Below, piece by piece: positions 52,567-59,852 of a stretch of 64,000 bases of DNA. A program made the position numbers and the translations under genes. The notes beneath the pieces were generated by a model. The model was not told the DNA's origin and ran no database searches. It saw only the letters and a program-made list of their open reading frames with translations. Position 1 is the stretch's first letter; the number at the start of each line of letters is the position of its first letter. This stretch comes from an uncultured Clostridium sp. (lineage in GTDB: Bacteria > Bacillota > Clostridia > TANB77 > CAG-508): contig CAMUDX010000005.1 in NCBI GenBank assembly GCA_947087745.1, forward strand, positions 854-64,853. Reading direction: 5' to 3'.

Positions 52567-54327
52567 TTAGTTTTCACTAATTATTTTTATATGTACATCT
52601 TTTAATTGTTGTTCTGTTACTTTTGATGGTGAATTCATTAATAAATCTCTTGCCTTTTTATTCTTTGGGAATGCAATTACTTCTCTTATGTTTTGTGAGT
52701 CTGAAATTAACATTACCATTCTGTCTACTCCTGGCGCTGCTCCAGCATGTGGAGGTGTTCCATATTGGAATGCATTATATAATGCTCCAAATCTTGTTTT
52801 TACATCTTCTTCGCTATATCCTGCAATTTCAAATGCCTTTATCATTATCTCTGGATTATGGTTTCTTACTGCTCCTGATGCCATTTCATATCCATTACAT
52901 ACTAAATCATATTGATATGCCAATATGTCTAATGGATTTTTTGTTCTTAGTGTTTCTAATCCCCCTTGTGGCATTGAAAATGGGTTGTGACAAAAATCTA
53001 TTTTTGGATTTCCTTCATCATCTTCTGCCATTTCGTACATTGGAAAGTCTACTATAAAACAGAATTTGTATACATTCTTTTCTATTAAGTCTAATCTTTT
53101 TCCTAATTCTATTCTAACTAATCCAGCTATTTTTTGTGTCTTTTCTAACTTCTCATCTGCTATAAAGAATATTGAACTTCCTCTTTCTAGATTATATTCT
53201 TTTTCTAATCTGTCTCTTATTTCTTCAGTTATGAATTTTGCTATTCCTCCTGTAACTTCGCCTGTTTGTTCTAGTTTTGTCCATGCTAATCCTTTTGCTT
53301 CACATTCTTGTACCGCAAATTCTGTCATGTTATCAAAGAATTTTCTTCCCTGCTCTGCTCCATTTGGTACTATTATTGCTTTTATTATTTTTCCTTTGAA
53401 TGCGTTAAATTCTGTGTTCTTAAATAGTTCTGTGATGTCTTGTATTATTAATGGATTTCTTAAATCTGGTTTATCAATTCCATACTTTTCCATTGCTTCT
53501 TTATATGGTATTTTGATAAATGGTCCTTTATCAACTTCCCAATTTGTGAATTTTGTAAATACATTTGGTATCACTGTCTCTATTACTTTGAATACATCTT
53601 CTTGTGTTGCAAAACTCATTTCAAAATCTAATTGATAAAATTCTCCTGGTGCTCTATCTGCTCTTGGGTCTTCATCTCTGAAACAAGGTGCTATTTGAAA
53701 ATATTTGTTAAATCCTGATACCATTAATAGTTGTTTGAATTGTTGTGGTGCTTGTGGTAATGCATAAAATTCTCCTGAATGTATTCTACTTGGTACTAAG
53801 TAATCTCTTGCTCCTTCTGGTGATGAATTTGCTAGTATTGGTGTTTGTATTTCTGTAAACCCTAATTCATCCATATTATCTCTTAATGCTTTTAATATTT
53901 TAGCTCTTAATAATATATTGTTGTGTAATTTTTCATTTCTTAAATCTAAAAACCTGTATTCTAACCTTAAGTCTTCTCTTACTTCTTGGTCTGTATTTAT
54001 CTCAAATGGTAATACTGTTTTGCATTTTCCTAATACTTCTATTGTATTTGCCACCACTTCTATCTCTCCTGTTGGCATTTTTGGATTTTTACTTGCTCTT
54101 TCTACTACCTTTCCTTTTATTCCTATACAACTTTCTGTTGTTAATTCTTTTGCTTGCTTTTGTAGCTCTTCATCATTTATTACTATTTGTGTTATTCCAA
54201 ATTCATCTCTTAAATCTAAGAATATCATTCCTCCTAGATTTCTGATTTTTTGTACCCATCCTGCTAATTCTACATCTTCTTCTATGTTTGTTTTGTTTAA
54301 TTCTCCTAAATTGTGTGTTCTATACAT
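52567..54327 (-). CDS. aspS: Aspartate--tRNA ligase
   Basis: MYRTHNLGEL..., class II motifs (FRDEDPRADR, GGLETL.., PPHAGAAPGVDR). Confidence 0.97.
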   Translation of the reverse strand: MYRTHNLGELNKTNIEEDVELAGWVQKIRNLGGMIFLDLRDEFGITQIVINDEELQKQAKELTTESCIGIKGKVVERASKNPKMPTGEIEVVANTIEVLGKCKTVLPFEINTDQEVREDLRLEYRFLDLRNEKLHNNILLRAKILKALRDNMDELGFTEIQTPILANSSPEGARDYLVPSRIHSGEFYALPQAPQQFKQLLMVSGFNKYFQIAPCFRDEDPRADRAPGEFYQLDFEMSFATQEDVFKVIETVIPNVFTKFTNWEVDKGPFIKIPYKEAMEKYGIDKPDLRNPLIIQDITELFKNTEFNAFKGKIIKAIIVPNGAEQGRKFFDNMTEFAVQECEAKGLAWTKLEQTGEVTGGIAKFITEEIRDRLEKEYNLERGSSIFFIADEKLEKTQKIAGLVRIELGKRLDLIEKNVYKFCFIVDFPMYEMAEDDEGNPKIDFCHNPFSMPQGGLETLRTKNPLDILAYQYDLVCNGYEMASGAVRNHNPEIMIKAFEIAGYSEEDVKTRFGALYNAFQYGTPPHAGAAPGVDRMVMLISDSQNIREVIAFPKNKKARDLLMNSPSKVTEQQLKDVHIKIISEN

Positions 54328-54359
54328 TTTGTTTCCTCCAATTTATTATTATAATATCT

Positions 54360-54388
54360 AATATAGCATATTTACTGTCTTTTGACAA
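54360..54388 (-). promoter_or_regulatory. Sigma-A-type promoter candidate for aspS
   Basis: Minus strand reads TTGTCA-17 nt-TATATT, about 30 nt upstream of the ATG. Confidence 0.35.
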
Positions 54389-54491
54389 TATTATTTTTTT
54401 GAAAACATCTAATTTTACAAGTGGCAGTCATCTATTACTATCTGAGAAAAAACTAAAGCAAAAAATATATACTATTGTTTTAATATTATTT

Positions 54492-54545
54492 AAAAAAGCA
54501 TCTATTACACTTAACAGTAATTATTGTTAGTGTAAATAGATGCTT
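54492..54545 (-). terminator. Rho-independent terminator after the Cys-lattice gene
   Basis: Stem of about 20 bp (AAGCATCTATTACAC.../...GTGTAAATAGATGCTT), followed on the minus strand by T6. Confidence 0.7.
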
Positions 54546-54570
54546 GTTGATAAAACTGTGTTTAACTATA

Positions 54571-54888
54571 CTATTTGATATCGCTATCTTCTTGTGCATC
54601 ACTTAGTTTCGTACAGTTATTACATTCGAAACTGTTAATGCAGTATCTACAAGAGTTACATTCTGTACAATCAGAACTTCTGTAGCAACTTACACTTCGC
54701 ACACATCTGATGCAAAATAAACATCTTGTGCAATCCTCACATTCATTGCAAAAAAAACTTAATATGCAATTAGTGCAATTTTTGCATCCGAAACATAATA
54801 TGCACCGATGATTGTTGTGTACTTTATTCCATGTTAATTGGAATATACTAAGTGTTACTGCCACTAAGGTTATAATAACCCAGTTCAT
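54571..54888 (-). CDS. Membrane-anchored protein with a strict period-3 Cys/Ser lattice
   Basis: GGAGG RBS and its own terminator. N-terminal TM. Residues 29-92 carry Cys (18) or Ser (4) at every third position. Confidence 0.7.
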   Translation of the reverse strand: MNWVIITLVAVTLSIFQLTWNKVHNNHRCILCFGCKNCTNCILSFFCNECEDCTRCLFCIRCVRSVSCYRSSDCTECNSCRYCINSFECNNCTKLSDAQEDSDIK

Positions 54889-55040
54889 TGGATTTCCTCC
54901 TTCAAATTTTTTCTAAATTTTATTTTACCATATATTAGATTAACTTTCAACTTTTTTACAACTTTATTTATTTTTTTAATATTAATAATAGCTAAAAGTC
55001 TAAAATTCAAGGCATTCTATACTCATTTTAAAATAATTTA

Positions 55041-55811
55041 TCACAGTATTCTAATTACATCTTTATATGTTACATAAATAGATAATGCTATTAATAGAGA
55101 AAACCCAATCATCTGTATAGTTGCTTCTGTTTCCACCTTCAGCGGTTTTCTTCGTATTGCTTCTATTATTAAAAATAATATTTTTCCACCATCTAATGCT
55201 GGTATTGGAAGCAAATTTGTTATTCCTAATGATATTGATATTACTGACATTATATAAATATAGTTTGTAAAGTTTGTTGTCTGTATTACTATTTCTGATA
55301 TTCCTACTGGACCTGTCATTTCATTTATTGAGATTCCTTGTGTGAATATAGCTTTTATACTATTTCCTAGTTCTGCAATAAATTGTCCTGTTCCTTGTGC
55401 ACCATAATATATTCTATTTAGTATAGTATCTTTTGCAGGATCAGCAAACTGAATTCCTACAGTTGTCATTAATATAAAGTATATTAATACTCCAAATATT
55501 ATATTCACTAATGCTCCTGCTGCAACTATTGCAATTCTCTTAGGTATACTTGCCTTTGTAAATGACCCCTTTTCTTCTGAAGCTTCTGCTTCTCCTTCCA
55601 TACTTACAAATCCACCTAATGGTATAATTCGTAATGCATATTTAGTTTCTTTTATCTGTTTTTGCCATATGGTTTTTCCAAACCCTATGGCAAATTCGTT
55701 TACTTTTACTTTGCATAATTTTGCTACAATGAAGTGTCCTCCTTCATGTATAAATACTAAAAATCCTAGCAAAAATATAATTTTTATTGCATTAAATATG
55801 AATGAAATCAA
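55041..55811 (-). CDS. RseP/RasP-like M50 site-2 protease that appears to lack a PDZ domain
   Basis: HEGGHF and NLLPIPALDGG motifs. The protein is only 256 aa, with about 25 residues where RseP homologues carry PDZ. It occupies the uppS-cdsA-(dxr)-rseP position. Confidence 0.8.
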   Translation of the reverse strand: MISFIFNAIKIIFLLGFLVFIHEGGHFIVAKLCKVKVNEFAIGFGKTIWQKQIKETKYALRIIPLGGFVSMEGEAEASEEKGSFTKASIPKRIAIVAAGALVNIIFGVLIYFILMTTVGIQFADPAKDTILNRIYYGAQGTGQFIAELGNSIKAIFTQGISINEMTGPVGISEIVIQTTNFTNYIYIMSVISISLGITNLLPIPALDGGKILFLIIEAIRRKPLKVETEATIQMIGFSLLIALSIYVTYKDVIRIL

Positions 55812-55827
55812 TGTATTCCTCCTATTT

Positions 55828-56658
55828 TTATAATATTCTTAATAATATATATGCAAATGGTGCGATAAATAATAAACTATCTATTCTATCTATAATTCCA
55901 CCATGCCCTGGTATTATATTACCATAATCTTTTACTCCTACATATCTTTTTATTGCTGATGCCGCAAAGTCTCCTAATTGTCCTAATATACTTAATATTA
56001 ATCCAATAACTGCTATTTGCCAATATGAGTAACTTAAGTCTGTATTTTGATTTATTAAATATGTATATCCCGTTACTAATATTATTGCTCCAATAGCTCC
56101 TGCTATACATCCTTCTATAGACTTTTTAGGGCTTACTTGACTAAATTTATGTTTTCCAAAGTATTTTCCTATTAAATAAGCAAATACATCTGTTCCCCAT
56201 CCTGTTAATATTAAATACCATATTAATAATATTCCATCTTTCATTTGTCTTATTAATGACATACTTATCATACAAAATACTATGTAACATATTCCAATAA
56301 AAGTATATGCTACATCATTAAAGTTTGTTTTCATATTTGTTACTATTACTTGAAAAAATAGTATTACTATTAATATTGGTAATGCTAGAAATCCTACAGT
56401 CCCCATATATTGGCTAGGTATCACATGTATTGTTGCGATTAATAAACAAGATAAGTATGATATCCATTTTACTGGATTTGCTTTTTTTGATACTGCATCT
56501 AAATATTCTCTCATTGCTTGTAATCCAACTATTGTTAGAACTATATCTACTACATATTTATTTCCAAATATTAAGACAATTGCTACTATTGGAAAGCCTA
56601 CCGCTGCTGATAAAATTCTAGTTACATCTATCTTTGTTTTGTTTTTCTCTTCTTCCAT
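55828..56658 (-). CDS. cdsA: Phosphatidate cytidylyltransferase
   Basis: SPKKSIEG...GDFAASAIKRYVGVKDYGNIIPGHGGIIDRIDS signature. Confidence 0.92.
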   Translation of the reverse strand: MEEEKNKTKIDVTRILSAAVGFPIVAIVLIFGNKYVVDIVLTIVGLQAMREYLDAVSKKANPVKWISYLSCLLIATIHVIPSQYMGTVGFLALPILIVILFFQVIVTNMKTNFNDVAYTFIGICYIVFCMISMSLIRQMKDGILLIWYLILTGWGTDVFAYLIGKYFGKHKFSQVSPKKSIEGCIAGAIGAIILVTGYTYLINQNTDLSYSYWQIAVIGLILSILGQLGDFAASAIKRYVGVKDYGNIIPGHGGIIDRIDSLLFIAPFAYILLRIL

Positions 56659-56767
56659 TTATTTCTCCTTTTGTTGTCTATAATAATAGATTAATCACTA
56701 TAAGATTAATTTACTAGTATATAAACAATTCATTTTATAAGTATTTATAGTATTAATTAGTTTCTTG

Positions 56768-57481
56768 TTAATTTGCTCCGAATTTTCTAGTTCTTTTGTT
56801 ATACTCATTTATTGCTATATCTAAATCTTCTTCTGTAAAGTCTGGCCAATTCTTTTCTATAAAATATAACTCTGAATATGTTGATTGCCACATCAAAAAT
56901 CCACTTAATCTTATTTCTCCACTTGTTCTTATTATTAAGTCTGGATCAGGATAATTTGCTGTATATAAGTTTTCTTCTATCAACTTTTCATTTATTTCTG
57001 ATATTTCTATTTTTCCTTGTTTTACTTCTTCTGATATCTTTGTTACTACCTTTACTATCTCATCTCTTCCACCATAGTTTAATGCTATAGTAAATGTTAC
57101 CCCTGTATTATTTTTAGTTCTTTCAATACATTTATTTATACTTTTTTGCATTCCTTCTGATAATGCTGTTATATCTCCTATAACTTTTACTCTTATGTTC
57201 TCTGTATCTGCTCGTTTTGAATAATCATCTAGATATGTTTGTAGTAACATCATTAATCCACTTACTTCTTCTTCTGTTCTCTTCCAGTTTTCTGTTGAGA
57301 ATGCATAAACTGTTATATATTTTAATCCTATTTTATTTGCATATCTTACTATATTTTCTAGTGTCTTTGCTCCTTGCTTATGTCCAAAGCCTGCTGGTTT
57401 TCCCTTTGATTTTGCCCATCTTCTGTTTCCATCCATTATTATTCCTATGTGCTCTGGCATTTTTTTTTGGTCTTCCTGCAA
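56768..57481 (-). CDS. uppS: Undecaprenyl-diphosphate synthase
   Basis: HIGIIMDGNRRWA...TVYAFSTENWKR...RTSGEIRLSGFLMWQ. Confidence 0.95.
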   Translation of the reverse strand: MQEDQKKMPEHIGIIMDGNRRWAKSKGKPAGFGHKQGAKTLENIVRYANKIGLKYITVYAFSTENWKRTEEEVSGLMMLLQTYLDDYSKRADTENIRVKVIGDITALSEGMQKSINKCIERTKNNTGVTFTIALNYGGRDEIVKVVTKISEEVKQGKIEISEINEKLIEENLYTANYPDPDLIIRTSGEIRLSGFLMWQSTYSELYFIEKNWPDFTEEDLDIAINEYNKRTRKFGAN

Positions 57482-57492
57482 ATTTATCCCCC

Positions 57493-58383
57493 CTATTTGT
57501 TTCTTATTTTAATATATATTGCAAGTTCTTTTAAAAACTCTCCTTTTTTTTCATATGTTTCTGCTATTTCTACTGCTTCTTTTGTTAATTCCTCTAGCAT
57601 TTCTTGTGATTTTTTTAAACCATATTTTGTAACATAAGTACATTTTCCTCTTTTTTCATCATTTCCTACTGGTTTTCCTAATACTTTCTCATCTCCAATT
57701 GCAGATAATAAGTCATCTTTTATTTGAAATGTTAATCCTATTGTTTCTGCAAATTTCGTAATTTTTTCTAAGTCGTCTTGTTTTGCATTTGCTAACATTG
57801 CTCCTACTCTTGCTGATGCTCTAAATAATGCTCCTGTCTTATTTTTGTGCATATATTCTAAATAGTCTGATGATATTGATTTTCCTTCATATTCTGTATC
57901 TACATATTCACCTGCTATCATTCTTTGTGTGGCTGTTGTAATTTCATTAATTGCTTTTATTTTATTATTTTGATTTTCTATATCTTTACTATTTAATAAA
58001 TCTTTTATTATCGTTCCATATGCTAGATTTAATAATCCATCTCCTGATAATATAGCTGTAGCCTCATTATACTTTTTGTGATTTGTTAACTTTCCATGTC
58101 TAAAATCATCATTATCTATCCCTGGTAAATCATCATGTATTAAGGAAAAATTGTGTATCATCTCCATAGCACATGCAAATGGCATAACCTTTTCAATATC
58201 TTCTTTGAAAATTTGATATACCTTTATCATTAATATTGGTCTTATTCTTTTTCCTCCTGCCATTAAACTATATTCCATTGCTTCATTTAATATTTGCTCT
58301 GGACATTCTTCTTTTGTTACATATTTTTCTAGTTCTTTGTCTACTAAATCTCTATATTTAGACAGCTCTTGTTTTAATTCCAT
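57493..58383 (-). CDS. Polyprenyl (farnesyl/geranylgeranyl) diphosphate synthase
   Basis: IHDDLPGIDNDDFRHG and FQIKDDLL aspartate-rich motifs. Confidence 0.9.
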   Translation of the reverse strand: MELKQELSKYRDLVDKELEKYVTKEECPEQILNEAMEYSLMAGGKRIRPILMIKVYQIFKEDIEKVMPFACAMEMIHNFSLIHDDLPGIDNDDFRHGKLTNHKKYNEATAILSGDGLLNLAYGTIIKDLLNSKDIENQNNKIKAINEITTATQRMIAGEYVDTEYEGKSISSDYLEYMHKNKTGALFRASARVGAMLANAKQDDLEKITKFAETIGLTFQIKDDLLSAIGDEKVLGKPVGNDEKRGKCTYVTKYGLKKSQEMLEELTKEAVEIAETYEKKGEFLKELAIYIKIRNK

Positions 58384-58484
58384 TATTACTTCTTATTTCC
58401 TTTCTAGTATTTAGTTAGCAAAATTTAGTAACATCCTGTTCTTATCTATTTATTTTCATTTTTTATTGCATATAAATTAATTAT

Positions 58485-59033
58485 TTATATATTCATTATA
58501 TCTAATTCTTTGTTTGCTAGTATTTTGTCTATTTCTTCTACCTTGCTGTCTGTCATTTTTTGTATTTCTGCTTCTGCTAATTTTAAATCATCTTCTGTTA
58601 TTTCACTTGCTTTTTGTTTTGCTTTAAATTCATCTAGTCCATCTCTTCTTACTCCTCTTATTGATACTTTTGCATCTTCTGCTAATTTTCTTATTTCTTT
58701 TACTAGCTCTTTTCTTCTTTCTTCTGTTAACTCTGGAAAGTTTAATCTTATTACTTTTCCATCATTGTTTGGGTTTATACCTATATCTGAAGATAATATT
58801 GCTTTTTCTATTTCTTTTAAACATGTTAAGTCCCATGGTTGTATTACTATTAACCTTGCTTCTGGTACTGATACTGCTGCTACTTGGTTTATTGGTGTTG
58901 GTGTTCCATAATACTCTATTTTTATTTTATTTAATATTGCAGGATTTGCCCTCCCTGCTCTTACTTCCGCCAATTTCTCTGTATATACTCCTATTGTTTT
59001 TTCCATTCTTTCTTTTATACTTGTGTAATCCAT
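58485..59033 (-). CDS. frr: Ribosome recycling factor
   Basis: RAGRANPAILNKIKIEYYG...INPNNDGKVIRLNFPELTEERRKELVK. Confidence 0.96.
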   Translation of the reverse strand: MDYTSIKERMEKTIGVYTEKLAEVRAGRANPAILNKIKIEYYGTPTPINQVAAVSVPEARLIVIQPWDLTCLKEIEKAILSSDIGINPNNDGKVIRLNFPELTEERRKELVKEIRKLAEDAKVSIRGVRRDGLDEFKAKQKASEITEDDLKLAEAEIQKMTDSKVEEIDKILANKELDIMNI

Positions 59034-59144
59034 AATTTTTTCTCTCCTCTTTTTATTATTTTTGTGTATTTCTCTTCTTGTAATTATATGTCATTAATAT
59101 TGTTTTAAAGAACGATACATTTTTAAAATTATTTGTTATCATAT

Positions 59145-59852
59145 TTATTTTACTATTGTTCCTATTCTTTCACCTTTTACTGCTCTCACTACATTTTCTG
59201 GATCTGCTATCCCAAATACTAATAAAGGCATATTATTATCTCTACACATTGCTGTTGCCGTTGAATCCATTACTTTTAAATCTTTTTCTAAAACTTCTAT
59301 ATAAGATATTTCTTCATATTTTGTTGCTGTTGCATCTATTTTAGGGTCTGCAGAATAAACTGCATCAATTGATTTTCCTAATAATATTATATCTGCTTTT
59401 ATTTCTATTGCTCTTAAAACTGCTGCTGTATCTGTTGTGAAATATGGATGCCCTGTTCCTCCAGCAAATATTACTACTCTTCCACGTTGTAAATGTTTTT
59501 CTGCTTTTCTTAATATAAATGGCTCTGCTATTTCTCTCATTTCTATTGATGTTTGTACTCTTGAATAAACTTCCCTCGCTTCTAGTGCATCTTGTAAAGC
59601 TAATCCATTCATTGCTGTTGCTAATATTCCCATATAGTCTGCTGTTGTTCTTTCCATTTGATGTCCTTGTCTCCCTCTCCAGAAGTTTCCTCCTCCTACT
59701 ACAATCGCAACTTCTACTCCCATTTCTACAATCTCTTTTATTTTATCACATATCTTTCCAACTGTTTCTACATCTACACCTACTTTTTGTTGTCCCGCTA
59801 ATGCTTCTCCACTTAATTTTAGTAGTACTCTTTTATATTTGGCTCCTTCCAC
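59145..59852 (-). CDS. pyrH: UMP kinase
   Basis: [13 protein letters not shown]...[10 protein letters not shown]...[16 protein letters not shown]. Confidence 0.96.

What the first reader, a model, noticed from the sequence alone, without database searches (positions are those of the whole stretch)
54571..54888. Small membrane-anchored protein with a perfect period-3 Cys/Ser lattice (22 consecutive C/S-x-x triplets)
After an N-terminal TM segment (residues 3-20), every third residue from 29 to 92 is Cys (18 positions) or Ser (positions 44, 65, 71 and 86). Cys-to-Cys spacings are only 3 or 6. Example: CILCFGCKNCTNCILSFFCNECEDCTRCLFCIRC... The gene has a consensus GGAGG RBS and its own strong terminator, so it looks expressed. 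I do not recognise this architecture: it is not a DnaJ-type CxxCxGxG motif, not SCIFF-like, and not metallothionein spacing. Possible roles include a metal-thiolate or iron-sulfur scaffold, a disulfide- or thioether-ladder structural peptide (coat or exosporium), or a RiPP-like precursor. The upstream neighbour in the same orientation is a site-2 protease that appears to lack a PDZ domain and could act on its TM anchor.
Basis: seen in the sequence. Interest (0 to 1): 0.7.

Follow-up and report, generated by a model that had tools for sequence, protein, structure and literature searches.

The report
Membrane-anchored cysteine-every-third-residue mini-protein
A real, strongly selected 105-residue gene in an uncultured gut Clostridia bacterium encodes a membrane-anchored protein with a cysteine at every third position for 66 residues; it belongs to an undescribed family whose repeat module also occurs in phage proteins of unknown function, and its nearest structural analogue is a beetle antifreeze protein.

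Summary
Window 54571-54888 (minus strand) encodes 105 aa: an N-terminal transmembrane (TM) helix, then 22 unbroken C/S-x-x units (18 Cys, 4 Ser).

- **Real gene.** It has its own promoter, a GGAGG ribosome-binding site and a terminator. Two orthologues keep the lattice (77-86% identity) while off-lattice residues diverge (30-41%). Flanking proteins are 86-93% identical.
- **No curated family.** Pfam and NCBIfam give no hit. About a dozen relatives exist among billions of proteins, all a TM helix plus a Cxx lattice.
- **No link to the protease.** More distant homologues have different neighbours, and none has maturase genes. The rseP-aspS gap is a variable insertion spot.
- **Phage relatives.** The lattice matches phrog_15341, a family of soluble phage proteins of unknown function. 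One record is annotated "insect antifreeze protein".
- **Closest solved analogue.** The only notable PDB (solved-structure) match is the Tenebrio antifreeze beta-helix, itself a C/S/C/A period-3 lattice. Family membership fails.
- **Structure prediction.** AlphaFold2 is inconclusive (pLDDT 63-68).

Best guess (about 0.4): the Cys column faces the cytoplasm and forms the metal-thiolate core of a narrow repeat fold. A disulfide-laddered external solenoid is the main rival.

The parts
54571..54888 (-). Coding sequence, 105 aa plus TAG stop: the Cys-lattice membrane mini-protein
   Evidence: ORF. The exact protein is found on 14 public contigs. Orthologues are under selection.
54829..54882 (-). 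Residues 3-20, N-terminal hydrophobic anchor (WVIITLVAVTLSIFQLTW)
   Evidence: AlphaFold2 predicts a helix at residues 2-23 with the highest pLDDT of the model. A hydrophobic segment occupies the same place in all family members. There is no K/R before it and there are 1-5 K/R after it.
54805..54828 (-). Residues 21-28, conserved Asn-rich juxtamembrane linker (NKVHNNHR)
   Evidence: N21 and N26 are invariant in the family alignments.
54607..54804 (-). Residues 29-94, 22 unbroken C/S-x-x units (the lattice)
   Evidence: Identity between orthologues is 77-86% on the lattice and 30-41% off it.
54751..54804 (-). Residues 29-46, the first six units (CIL CFG CKN CTN CIL SFF): conserved head of the family
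   Evidence: The family consensus is C[FI][LM]C[FW]G[SC]KxC[TV]NCI[LF]CF. C29, C32, C38 and C41 are invariant; G34 and I42 are nearly invariant.
54571..54606 (-). Residues 95-105 plus stop: acidic C-terminal tail, part of the end motif CNNCxx[LI]x[DN]A[EQ]
   Evidence: The motif is shared by the window protein, the L008 orthologue and P0001, and partly by P0003.
54896..54900 (-). Ribosome-binding site GGAGG, 7 nt upstream of the ATG
   Evidence: An equivalent AAGGAGGAA precedes the L008 orthologue.
54922..54950 (-). Promoter-like site TTGAAA-17-TAAAAT with an extended -10 TG
   Evidence: 10 of 12 matches, TG present. The TATGGTAAAAT -10 element is also present upstream of the L008 orthologue. 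This is a consensus match only.
54490..54545 (-). Intrinsic-terminator-like hairpin (about 19 pairs) followed by U6
   Evidence: centroid -21.3 kcal/mol, z = -3.66. No riboswitch or T-box is found in 54200-55150.

Best explanation
Shown:
- This is a genuine, independently transcribed gene for a small single-pass membrane protein.
- An N-terminal anchor helix and a short conserved Asn-rich linker hold a 66-residue domain of 22 Cys-x-x units at the membrane.
- Selection acts almost only on the lattice residue of each unit. The other two residues change about as fast as synonymous sites in the neighbouring gene.
- Units are gained and lost one at a time.

Inferred:
- The lattice residues point into the core of a very narrow repeat fold, of solenoid or stacked-knuckle type with about 12-15 residues per turn. 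This is the geometry of the beetle antifreeze beta-helix, whose inward residues follow the same period-3 pattern.
- The charge distribution places the domain on the cytoplasmic side, and the phage relatives of the module are soluble and have no signal sequence. The thiols are therefore most likely cross-linked by bound metal ions (Zn, possibly Fe), as in CxxC knuckles, and not by disulfides.
- The product would be a rigid, metal-stabilised rod or platform on the inner face of the membrane. It could also act as a metal or redox buffer there.

The gene is a lineage-specific insertion between rseP and aspS and has no functional tie to the protease. It is the cellular, membrane-anchored branch of a lattice module otherwise found in phage proteins of unknown function (phrog_15341).
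For: Gene reality and selection:
- The exact protein is found on 14 contigs.
- Orthologues occupy the same slot in L008 and in P0001/L092.
- 9-10 of the 17-19 shared Cys codons differ TGT/TGC while Cys itself is kept.
- dN is 0.11-0.13 on the lattice and 0.60 off it. The adjacent M50 gene has dN 0.04-0.05 and dS 0.63-0.66.
- L095 differs from L097 by exactly one CTN unit.

Lattice positions are small and inward-facing:
- Ser accounts for 21 of 36 non-Cys lattice residues in 53 lattice proteins.
- Ala replaces Ser at residue 44 in L008.
- The +2 position is rich in N, G and D, and the +1 position in I, F, T and V. Off-lattice hydropathy has a period of 4-5 units.

Analogue:
- With the family profile, the antifreeze protein TmAFP (1EZG) is the only notable PDB match, at E = 0.0011. 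Its sequence reads C/S/C/A every third residue.
- The phage-lattice profile matches it at E = 1.2e-5.
- AlphaFold2 gives a TM helix plus short strands. The only Foldseek PDB matches are two beta-solenoids, QnrB1 and TmAFP, and both are non-significant.

Cytoplasmic location and metal:
- K/R counts are 0-2 before the TM helix and 1-5 after it, with the after-side higher in 10 of the 11 members and equal (1 versus 1) in the other.
- Phage homologues have no hydrophobic N-terminus and lie among phage replication-type genes.
- Total Cys number is odd in 21 of 53 lattice proteins, which argues against obligatory disulfide pairing.
- CXXC-type zinc fingers are the next, non-significant PDB matches.
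Against: - No metal or redox chemistry can be tested here.
- AlphaFold2 confidence is low (pLDDT 63 and 68), and the second model matched nothing in the PDB.
- The positive-inside argument rests on only 1-5 charges, and no dedicated topology or signal-peptide predictor was available. Several members have small residues near the end of the hydrophobic segment that could serve as a signal-peptidase site.
- Near-neutral change of exposed residues with conserved Cys is also the signature of secreted disulfide-rich proteins under diversifying selection.
- Similarity to TmAFP and to phrog_15341 is dominated by the Cys lattice. Homology and convergence cannot be separated (bias scores 20-38; hhalign against TmAFP gives only 10% probability).
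- No precedent is known to me for a continuous Cxx column that binds metals.
Confidence: 0.4

Rival explanations
1. The N-terminal segment is a signal anchor or signal peptide that puts the lattice outside the cell. There it folds as a disulfide-laddered beta-solenoid like the Tenebrio antifreeze protein. It would form a rigid surface rod whose exposed residues vary under phage or host pressure.
For: - TmAFP is the best PDB match, and it has the same period-3 C/S/C/A inward lattice.
- A phage homologue is annotated 'insect antifreeze protein' through InterPro IPR016133.
- Off-lattice dN of 0.60 is close to the neighbouring gene's dS, as in secreted Cys-scaffold proteins.
- Several members have A or G near the end of the hydrophobic segment.
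Against: - There is no positively charged n-region before the hydrophobic segment, and K/R residues cluster after it.
- The host is an anaerobic gut Clostridia bacterium and the phage relatives are soluble, so the module must fold in a reducing cytoplasm.
- 21 of 53 lattice proteins have an odd Cys count.
- In the family, position 3 is usually Ser while its i+/-6 partners are invariant Cys.
- In TmAFP only every second lattice position is Cys. As far as I know, four Cys per 12-residue turn cannot all pair across that narrow core.
- There is no T-C-T motif, no Pfam AFP hit, and hhalign gives 10% probability.
Confidence: 0.2
2. The lattice carries several iron-sulfur clusters. CxxCxxC triads would act as in ferredoxins, making a membrane-tethered electron-transfer or Fe-S storage protein.
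For: - CxxCxxC is the three-ligand motif of 4Fe-4S ferredoxins (established knowledge).
- The host is an anaerobe.
- There are 18-28 Cys per protein.
Against: - There is no Fer4 or other Fe-S family hit in Pfam or NCBIfam at E <= 10.
- There is no CxxxCP fourth-ligand motif and no Pro in the lattice.
- No redox-enzyme neighbour occurs in any context.
- Unit number varies from 13 to more than 30 with single-unit indels, which is unlike fixed cluster sites.
Confidence: 0.08
3. It is a phage-derived accessory gene. As a membrane-anchored copy of the phage lattice protein, it would act in phage exclusion, defence or another phage-host interaction. This is a rival about role only and is compatible with either fold.
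For: - The lattice matches phrog_15341 at E = 2.4e-9, and hhalign against the phage lattice gives 98.9% probability.
- The gene sits in a variable insertion spot.
- It evolves about 13 times faster than its neighbours at off-lattice sites.
- Its distribution among related species is patchy: 2 of the 80 fetched loci have it in this slot.
Against: - There is no hit in PADLOC.
- There are no prophage genes around it in any of the five bacterial contexts, which are housekeeping genes.
- tblastn of the window protein against 50,697 phage records finds nothing.
- The similarity may be lattice-driven convergence.
Confidence: 0.12
4. It is a substrate or regulatory partner of the adjacent PDZ-less site-2 protease, which would cleave its TM anchor.
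For: - It has the same orientation as the protease gene and lies immediately downstream of it, in three related species.
Against: - The adjacency is not conserved. Homologues lie next to rpmF/der, mutL, groES or dtd.
- Most relatives have rseP followed directly by aspS or by unrelated cargo.
- The gene has its own promoter and terminator.
- The rseP position is explained by the conserved uppS-cdsA-rseP order.
- The N-terminal tail is 0-3 residues in most members (11 in P0003), so cleavage would release nothing into the cytoplasm. As far as I know, known RseP/RasP substrates are N-in, C-out.
Confidence: 0.05
5. It is a RiPP (ribosomally synthesised, modified peptide) precursor whose Cys or Ser residues are converted into thioether or other cross-links.
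For: - The Cys/Ser-rich core is superficially like ranthipeptide, sactipeptide or lanthipeptide cores.
Against: - No radical-SAM, LanM/LanB, protease or exporter genes are found in any context.
- There is no NCBIfam precursor family hit.
- The 'leader' would be a TM helix.
- The phage homologues carry folded N-terminal domains.
Confidence: 0.04

Closest known systems
Tenebrio molitor antifreeze protein (TmAFP, PDB 1EZG/1L1I; beetle 12-residue repeat A/TCTxSxxCxxAx, motif as quoted in PMC11323028)
   Same: - It has an unbroken period-3 lattice of small inward residues. TmAFP residues 15-78 read C C C A C S C A C S C A ... (sequence).
- N/D-rich turn positions are shared.
- Ser and Ala are the only tolerated lattice substitutes.
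- It is the only notable PDB match to either lattice profile (E = 0.0011; E = 1.2e-5).
   Different: - Here nearly every lattice position is Cys, not every second one.
- There is no T-C-T ice-binding ladder.
- The protein is bacterial, has a TM anchor, and is probably cytoplasmic and not secreted.
- There is no Pfam AFP hit, and hhalign gives 10% probability.
- Ice binding makes no sense in a gut anaerobe.
PHROG family phrog_15341 (phage proteins of unknown function), for example Campylobacter phage CP220 gp032 and Vibrio phage 1.238.A gp68
   Same: - It has the same unbroken (C-x-x)n lattice of 12-23 units.
- The HMM match of the window protein is E = 2.4e-9.
- The profile-profile probability is 98.9%.
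   Different: - The phage proteins are soluble, with an N-terminal domain of about 35 aa in place of a TM helix.
- Their off-lattice residues are more acidic and richer in N/D.
- They lie in phage genomes, next to SSB/DnaB in one phage-like contig and next to portal/ligase genes in CP220, often in 2-5 copies.
- Their function is unknown, so the match gives no mechanism.
CxxC zinc knuckles, CXXC-type zinc fingers and metallothioneins
   Same: - In CXXC domains, consecutive CxxCxxC triads chelate one Zn. These domains are the next, non-significant PDB matches.
- There is a high density of thiolates with little other conserved sequence, as in metallothioneins.
   Different: - There are no CxC or CC motifs.
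- There is no Pfam hit to any metallothionein or zinc-finger family.
- The lattice is strictly periodic and far longer than any known knuckle array.

Membership tests
Insect (Tenebrio-type) antifreeze protein repeat (Pfam AFP / InterPro IPR016133) | Significant match to the family model | tested here: not met
   No Pfam hit at E <= 10. phmmer against 1EZG gives E = 1.7. The family profile gives E = 0.0011 with bias 37.6. hhalign gives 10% probability.
Insect (Tenebrio-type) antifreeze protein repeat (Pfam AFP / InterPro IPR016133) | 12-residue repeat with a T-C-T ice-binding ladder and Cys only at i/i+6 | tested here: not met
   The sequence has no T-C-T. Cys is at i/i+3 throughout. Hydropathy periodicity is only roughly 12-15 residues.
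Insect (Tenebrio-type) antifreeze protein repeat (Pfam AFP / InterPro IPR016133) | Period-3 lattice of small inward residues (C/S/A) | tested here: met
   The lattice read-outs of the window protein and of TmAFP are both unbroken C/S/A lattices.
Insect (Tenebrio-type) antifreeze protein repeat (Pfam AFP / InterPro IPR016133) | Right-handed beta-helix with intracoil disulfides; secreted | tested here: inconclusive
   AlphaFold2 pLDDT is 63-68, and Foldseek E to 1L1I is 7.4. Disulfide state cannot be tested with these tools. Charge distribution suggests a cytoplasmic location.
phrog_15341 (phage, unknown function) | HMM match | tested here: met
   E = 2.4e-9, 38 bits, residues 25-99. There is no curated cut-off and the match is lattice-dominated.
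phrog_15341 (phage, unknown function) | Phage genomic context and a soluble N-terminal domain | tested here: not met
   The window gene lies between rseP and aspS with no phage genes nearby. It has a TM helix in place of the soluble domain.
4Fe-4S ferredoxin | CxxCxxCxxxCP motif and a Fer4 model match | tested here: not met
   No Pfam or NCBIfam hit. There is no xxxCP motif in the sequence.
Metallothionein (bacterial SmtA/BmtA and others) | Family model match; CxC/CC motifs; metal clusters | tested here: not met
   No Pfam hit and no CxC or CC motif in the window protein. Metal content cannot be tested here.
DnaJ-type CxxCxGxG zinc finger | Repeated CxxCxGxG | tested here: not met
   There is only one CFGC, with no second Gly, and no Pfam hit.
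SCIFF / ranthipeptide-type RiPP precursor | Precursor family model and an adjacent radical-SAM maturase | tested here: not met
   No NCBIfam hit. No rSAM gene is found in five independent contexts.
Site-2-protease substrate (anti-sigma factor type) | Conserved linkage to the protease; an N-in, C-out TM helix with a cytoplasmic N-terminal domain | tested here: not met
   The linkage is restricted to three close species. The N-terminal tail is 0-3 residues in most members and 11 in P0003.

The most novel reading that the evidence does not exclude
The (Cys-x-x)n module is a new fold class. It would be a tripeptide-repeat solenoid whose whole core is a continuous column of cysteine thiolates holding a linear stack of metal ions, roughly one Zn or Fe per four Cys. 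Bacteria would use it as a membrane-tethered rod and many phages as a soluble protein. No solved structure or characterised protein has this arrangement.
Probability: 0.2. Interest if true: 0.8.

Novelty: new variant of a known kind. Interest (0 to 1): 0.5.

Why it matters
If the metal-column reading is right, this would be a minimal, genetically encodable and length-tunable metal-thiolate rod. The unit number varies naturally from 12 to more than 30. That would interest metalloprotein structure and protein design, and it would give a first functional handle on a phage protein family that has no known role (phrog_15341).

If the disulfide reading is right, it would be the first bacterial counterpart of the beetle antifreeze beta-helix, used for something other than ice binding.

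Either way it is a clear example of selection acting on a one-in-three residue scaffold while the remaining residues drift at close to the neutral rate.

The practical correction is that the neighbouring site-2 protease should not be used to infer its function.

Tried and rejected
Searches that found nothing:
- Pfam, NCBIfam and PADLOC scans gave no hit.
- The single-sequence word-index homology search timed out once and then found nothing, although the protein is in the collection.
- tblastn of the window protein against 50,697 phage records gave no match.
- Rfam on 54200-55150 found no riboswitch or T-box, so the hairpin is a plain terminator.
- Tandem Repeats Finder found no DNA-level tandem repeat in the gene, so the lattice is kept at the protein level.
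- Three literature searches found no paper on such lattices. A 2026 preprint on 'cysteine-rich repeats' concerns a different spacing.

Searches that were uninformative or spurious:
- The viral-contig scan with the family profile returned six hits. All are out-of-frame translations of simple DNA repeats in contigs with 33-60% GC, and I rejected them.
- Two AlphaFold2 runs, on the window protein and on P0008, gave pLDDT 63 and 68. Foldseek against the PDB gave non-significant matches only or none, and against BFVD nothing significant.
- tblastn for remnants of the gene in the 78 other rseP loci found none. Whether the gene was gained or lost cannot be decided.

Considered and rejected:
- A collagen-like triple helix: Cys is too large for the core position that Gly occupies.
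- A regular alpha-helix: i/i+3 residues do not line up on one face.
- A continuous beta-strand: its period is 2, not 3.

A 3-10 or polyproline-II helix bundle with a Cys stripe remains geometrically possible, but AlphaFold2 does not favour it.
Full report
**1. The observation**

The minus strand of window 54571-54888 holds a 105-aa ORF. Its product has a hydrophobic N-terminus (residues 3-20). From C29 to C92, every third residue is Cys (18 times) or Ser (residues 44, 65, 71 and 86). The lattice read-out is CCCCCSCCCCCCSCSCCCCSCC, and there is no Cys off the lattice.

This is far beyond chance. The window's other ORFs contain 1.1% Cys, so at least 18 Cys in 105 residues has P about 4e-16. All 18 falling in one phase has P about 8e-9. 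No other stop-free segment of the 64-kb window has more than four lattice Cys in a row. No DNA-level tandem repeat underlies the pattern.

**2. It is a real, separately expressed gene**

- The ribosome-binding site GGAGG lies 7 nt upstream of the ATG.
- A promoter-like site TTGAAA-17-TGgTAAAAT lies 35-60 nt upstream.
- A roughly 19-pair hairpin followed by U6 follows the stop codon (centroid -21.3 kcal/mol, z = -3.7).
- No riboswitch or T-box is present in the two intergenic regions.
- The exact protein is encoded on 14 public contigs, including the MAG GCA_022794615.1, 'Clostridia bacterium ABMPRH_55_1'. The window has 27% GC.

**3. Orthologues and selection**

I scanned one genome per species with the neighbouring M50 protease as bait and kept the 80 best loci. 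Only one other species (L008, M50 90% identical) has a lattice ORF in the same slot. It has an equivalent GGAGG site, the same TATGGTAAAAT -10 element and a terminator-like hairpin of its own. A third orthologue (P0001; loci L092 and L093) also lies between cdsA-M50 and aspS.

- Flanking proteins are 86-93% identical between these genomes, but the lattice protein is only 44-49% identical.
- Identity is 77-86% at lattice positions and 30-41% off the lattice.
- 9-10 of the 17-19 shared Cys codons differ TGT/TGC, so it is the amino acid that is conserved, not the DNA.
- The adjacent M50 gene has dN 0.04-0.05 and dS 0.63-0.66. In the lattice gene, dN is 0.11-0.13 at lattice codons and 0.60 at off-lattice codons.
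- Off-lattice residues therefore change about as fast as neighbouring synonymous sites. With three sequences I cannot separate relaxed from diversifying selection.

**4. The family**

Pfam and NCBIfam give no hit at E <= 10.

An exhaustive phmmer search of 1.84 billion representative proteins found eight proteins at E <= 1e-3. A profile search of 5.8 billion clusters found eleven. None has a name or a Pfam domain.

All the closer hits share one plan:
- a TM helix;
- a juxtamembrane linker with invariant N21 and N26;
- a conserved head, C[FI][LM]C[FW]G[SC]KxC[TV]NCI[LF]CF;
- a variable run of Cxx units, 13 to more than 30 in all.

The three orthologues, and partly P0003, also share an end motif CNNCxx[LI]x[DN]A[EQ]. 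This suggests a capped, folded domain and not a disordered thiol sponge.

One member (the P0010 type) occurs on 27 low-GC (24-30%) metagenome contigs, several of them labelled human gut. One contig (L095) lacks exactly one CTN unit relative to the others, so the evolutionary unit is a single triplet.

**5. Context, and the site-2 protease**

The M50 gene is the RseP/RasP homologue in the conserved order pyrH-frr-(polyprenyl synthase)-uppS-cdsA-rseP.

- In at least six relatives, rseP is followed directly by aspS.
- In others the gap holds unrelated cargo: a pilin-like protein plus a sigma-like protein, an 886-aa protein, or Sel1-like proteins.
- No remnant of the lattice gene is detectable in the other 78 loci.
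- More distant homologues lie between rpmF and der, near mutL, upstream of groES, or near dtd and gpsA.

No partner gene is conserved, and no radical-SAM, lanthipeptide-type, protease or exporter gene appears in any context. The adjacency to the protease is therefore an accident of insertion into a variable spot. The RiPP reading has no support.

**6. The same lattice in phages**

Weaker hits of the searches are soluble proteins of 80-125 aa. They have an N-terminal domain of about 35 aa followed by 12-23 unbroken C-x-x units, often C-x-[ND].

- The window protein matches PHROG family phrog_15341 (unknown function) at E = 2.4e-9. The soluble proteins match it at E down to 2.6e-30.
- hhalign of the TM family against the soluble lattice gives 98.9% probability. 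The score is dominated by Cys columns, so common descent and convergence cannot be separated.
- Campylobacter phages CP220, CPt10 and CP21 carry 2-5 copies each. Vibrio phage 1.238.A gp68 is annotated 'insect antifreeze protein' through InterPro IPR016133.
- One homologue lies beside SSB and DnaB in a phage-like contig.
- The window protein itself finds nothing by tblastn in 50,697 phage records. PADLOC gives no hit.

**7. Structural analogue**

With the family profile, the only notable PDB match is the Tenebrio molitor antifreeze protein 1EZG, at E = 0.0011 with high bias. The phage-lattice profile matches it at E = 1.2e-5.

The TmAFP sequence printed is itself a perfect period-3 lattice, C C C A C S C A C S C A and so on. 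This is the A/TCTxSxxCxxAx repeat, as the motif is quoted in PMC11323028. From my own knowledge of the structure (Liou et al. 2000), those four positions point into a very narrow 12-residue-per-turn beta-helix, and the two Cys form a disulfide across each turn.

Several features here fit the same kind of geometry:
- Ser is the dominant non-Cys lattice residue (21 of 36 in 53 proteins), and Ala occurs once.
- The +2 position is N/G/D-rich and the +1 position is I/F/T/V-rich.
- Off-lattice hydropathy has a period of 4-5 units, that is 12-15 residues.

Membership in the antifreeze family nevertheless fails. There is no Pfam hit, hhalign gives 10% probability, there is no T-C-T ladder, and Cys is at i/i+3 instead of i/i+6.

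AlphaFold2 gives a TM helix plus short strands at pLDDT 63, and 68 for P0008. Foldseek returns only QnrB1 and TmAFP, both beta-solenoids, at E = 1.7 and 7.4. It returns nothing for the second model and nothing significant in BFVD. The fold remains an inference.

**8. Which side of the membrane, and which chemistry**

- There are 0-2 K/R residues before the hydrophobic segment and 1-5 after it, and most lattice domains carry a net positive charge. By the positive-inside rule, the domain faces the cytoplasm.
- The phage relatives have no signal sequence or TM helix, so the module can fold in a reducing cytoplasm.
- Total Cys number is odd in 21 of 53 lattice proteins.
- Lattice position 3 is Ser in most TM-family members, while its i+/-6 neighbours are invariant Cys.

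Both of the last two points argue against obligatory disulfide pairing. The strict preference for Cys over other small residues points to thiol chemistry. In a cytoplasm that means metal ligation, as in CxxC knuckles and CXXC zinc fingers, which are the next, non-significant PDB matches.

Against this:
- The charge argument is thin.
- No topology predictor was available.
- Several members have small residues that could serve as a signal-peptidase site.
- Fast change of exposed residues on a fixed Cys scaffold is also typical of secreted disulfide-rich proteins.

**9. Verdict**

Shown:
- a real gene;
- a conserved, selected Cys lattice with a one-triplet unit;
- membership of a small unnamed family of TM-anchored proteins;
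- a lattice module shared with phage family phrog_15341;
- no functional link to the site-2 protease and no RiPP machinery.

Inferred, at about 0.4: a cytoplasm-facing, metal-thiolate-cored narrow repeat fold tethered to the membrane, acting as a rigid scaffold or a metal or redox buffer.

The main rival, at about 0.2, is an external, disulfide-laddered TmAFP-like solenoid. A phage-related role (about 0.12) is compatible with either fold.

I rate it a new variant of a known kind. The known kind is a Cys-ladder repeat protein with a beetle antifreeze analogue and a catalogued but uncharacterised phage family. Interest is moderate at 0.5, and it would be high if the continuous metal-thiolate column were confirmed.

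Noticed in passing
L131 1423-1797 (Vibrio phage 1.238.A gp68); L132 2480-2851 (Campylobacter phage CP220 gp032); L128 6001-6288: Soluble phage proteins of 80-125 aa carry the same unbroken (C-x-x)n lattice of 12-23 units, in PHROG phrog_15341 (unknown function). Campylobacter phages hold 2-5 copies each, and one Vibrio phage copy is annotated 'insect antifreeze protein'.
   Followed up: partly
window 55041-55811 (-): The RseP/RasP homologue is only 256 aa and has no PDZ domain. Its matches in all 80 related gut Clostridia loci align to nearly the whole 256-aa query, and the ORFs read out in 13 of them are 243-265 aa. PDZ-less RseP therefore appears to be a trait of the clade.
   Followed up: partly
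window 54328-55040, and the equivalent gap in L009, L011, L019, L032: The gap between rseP and aspS is a variable insertion spot. It is empty in many relatives. Elsewhere it holds a pilin-like protein plus a sigma-like protein (L009), an 886-aa protein (L011) or Sel1-like proteins (L032).
   Followed up: partly
window 54571-54888 (-): Half of the Cys codons are TGC (9 of 18), against 22% TGC in 30 other ORFs of this 27%-GC window (Fisher p = 0.017). The two orthologues show the same roughly 50:50 use. The cause is unknown.
   Followed up: partly
window 55828-59852 (-): The gene order is pyrH-frr-polyprenyl synthase-uppS-cdsA-rseP. As far as I recall, many Firmicutes have dxr between cdsA and rseP, and it is absent here. 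A polyprenyl synthase gene sits between frr and uppS.
   Followed up: no
P0002 (548 aa, metagenomic): This large protein has several repeats of a helical module (about 40 aa) followed by a Cxx lattice, 79 Cys in all. It is the strongest match to phrog_15341, at E = 2.6e-30.
   Followed up: no
L095-L121 (metagenome contigs, several labelled human gut): The P0010-type homologue is polymorphic in gut populations. Variants include a deletion of one unit (L095), altered or truncated C-termini (L110, L111, L115, L119) and frameshifted database entries (P0004, P0012). Some of these may be assembly errors.
   Followed up: partly
L122-L127 (viral contigs): The hits of the family profile in IMG/VR are out-of-frame translations of simple DNA repeats (for example CIPCSPCIP and CILCSQ) in contigs with 33-60% GC. 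They are not relatives.
   Followed up: yes
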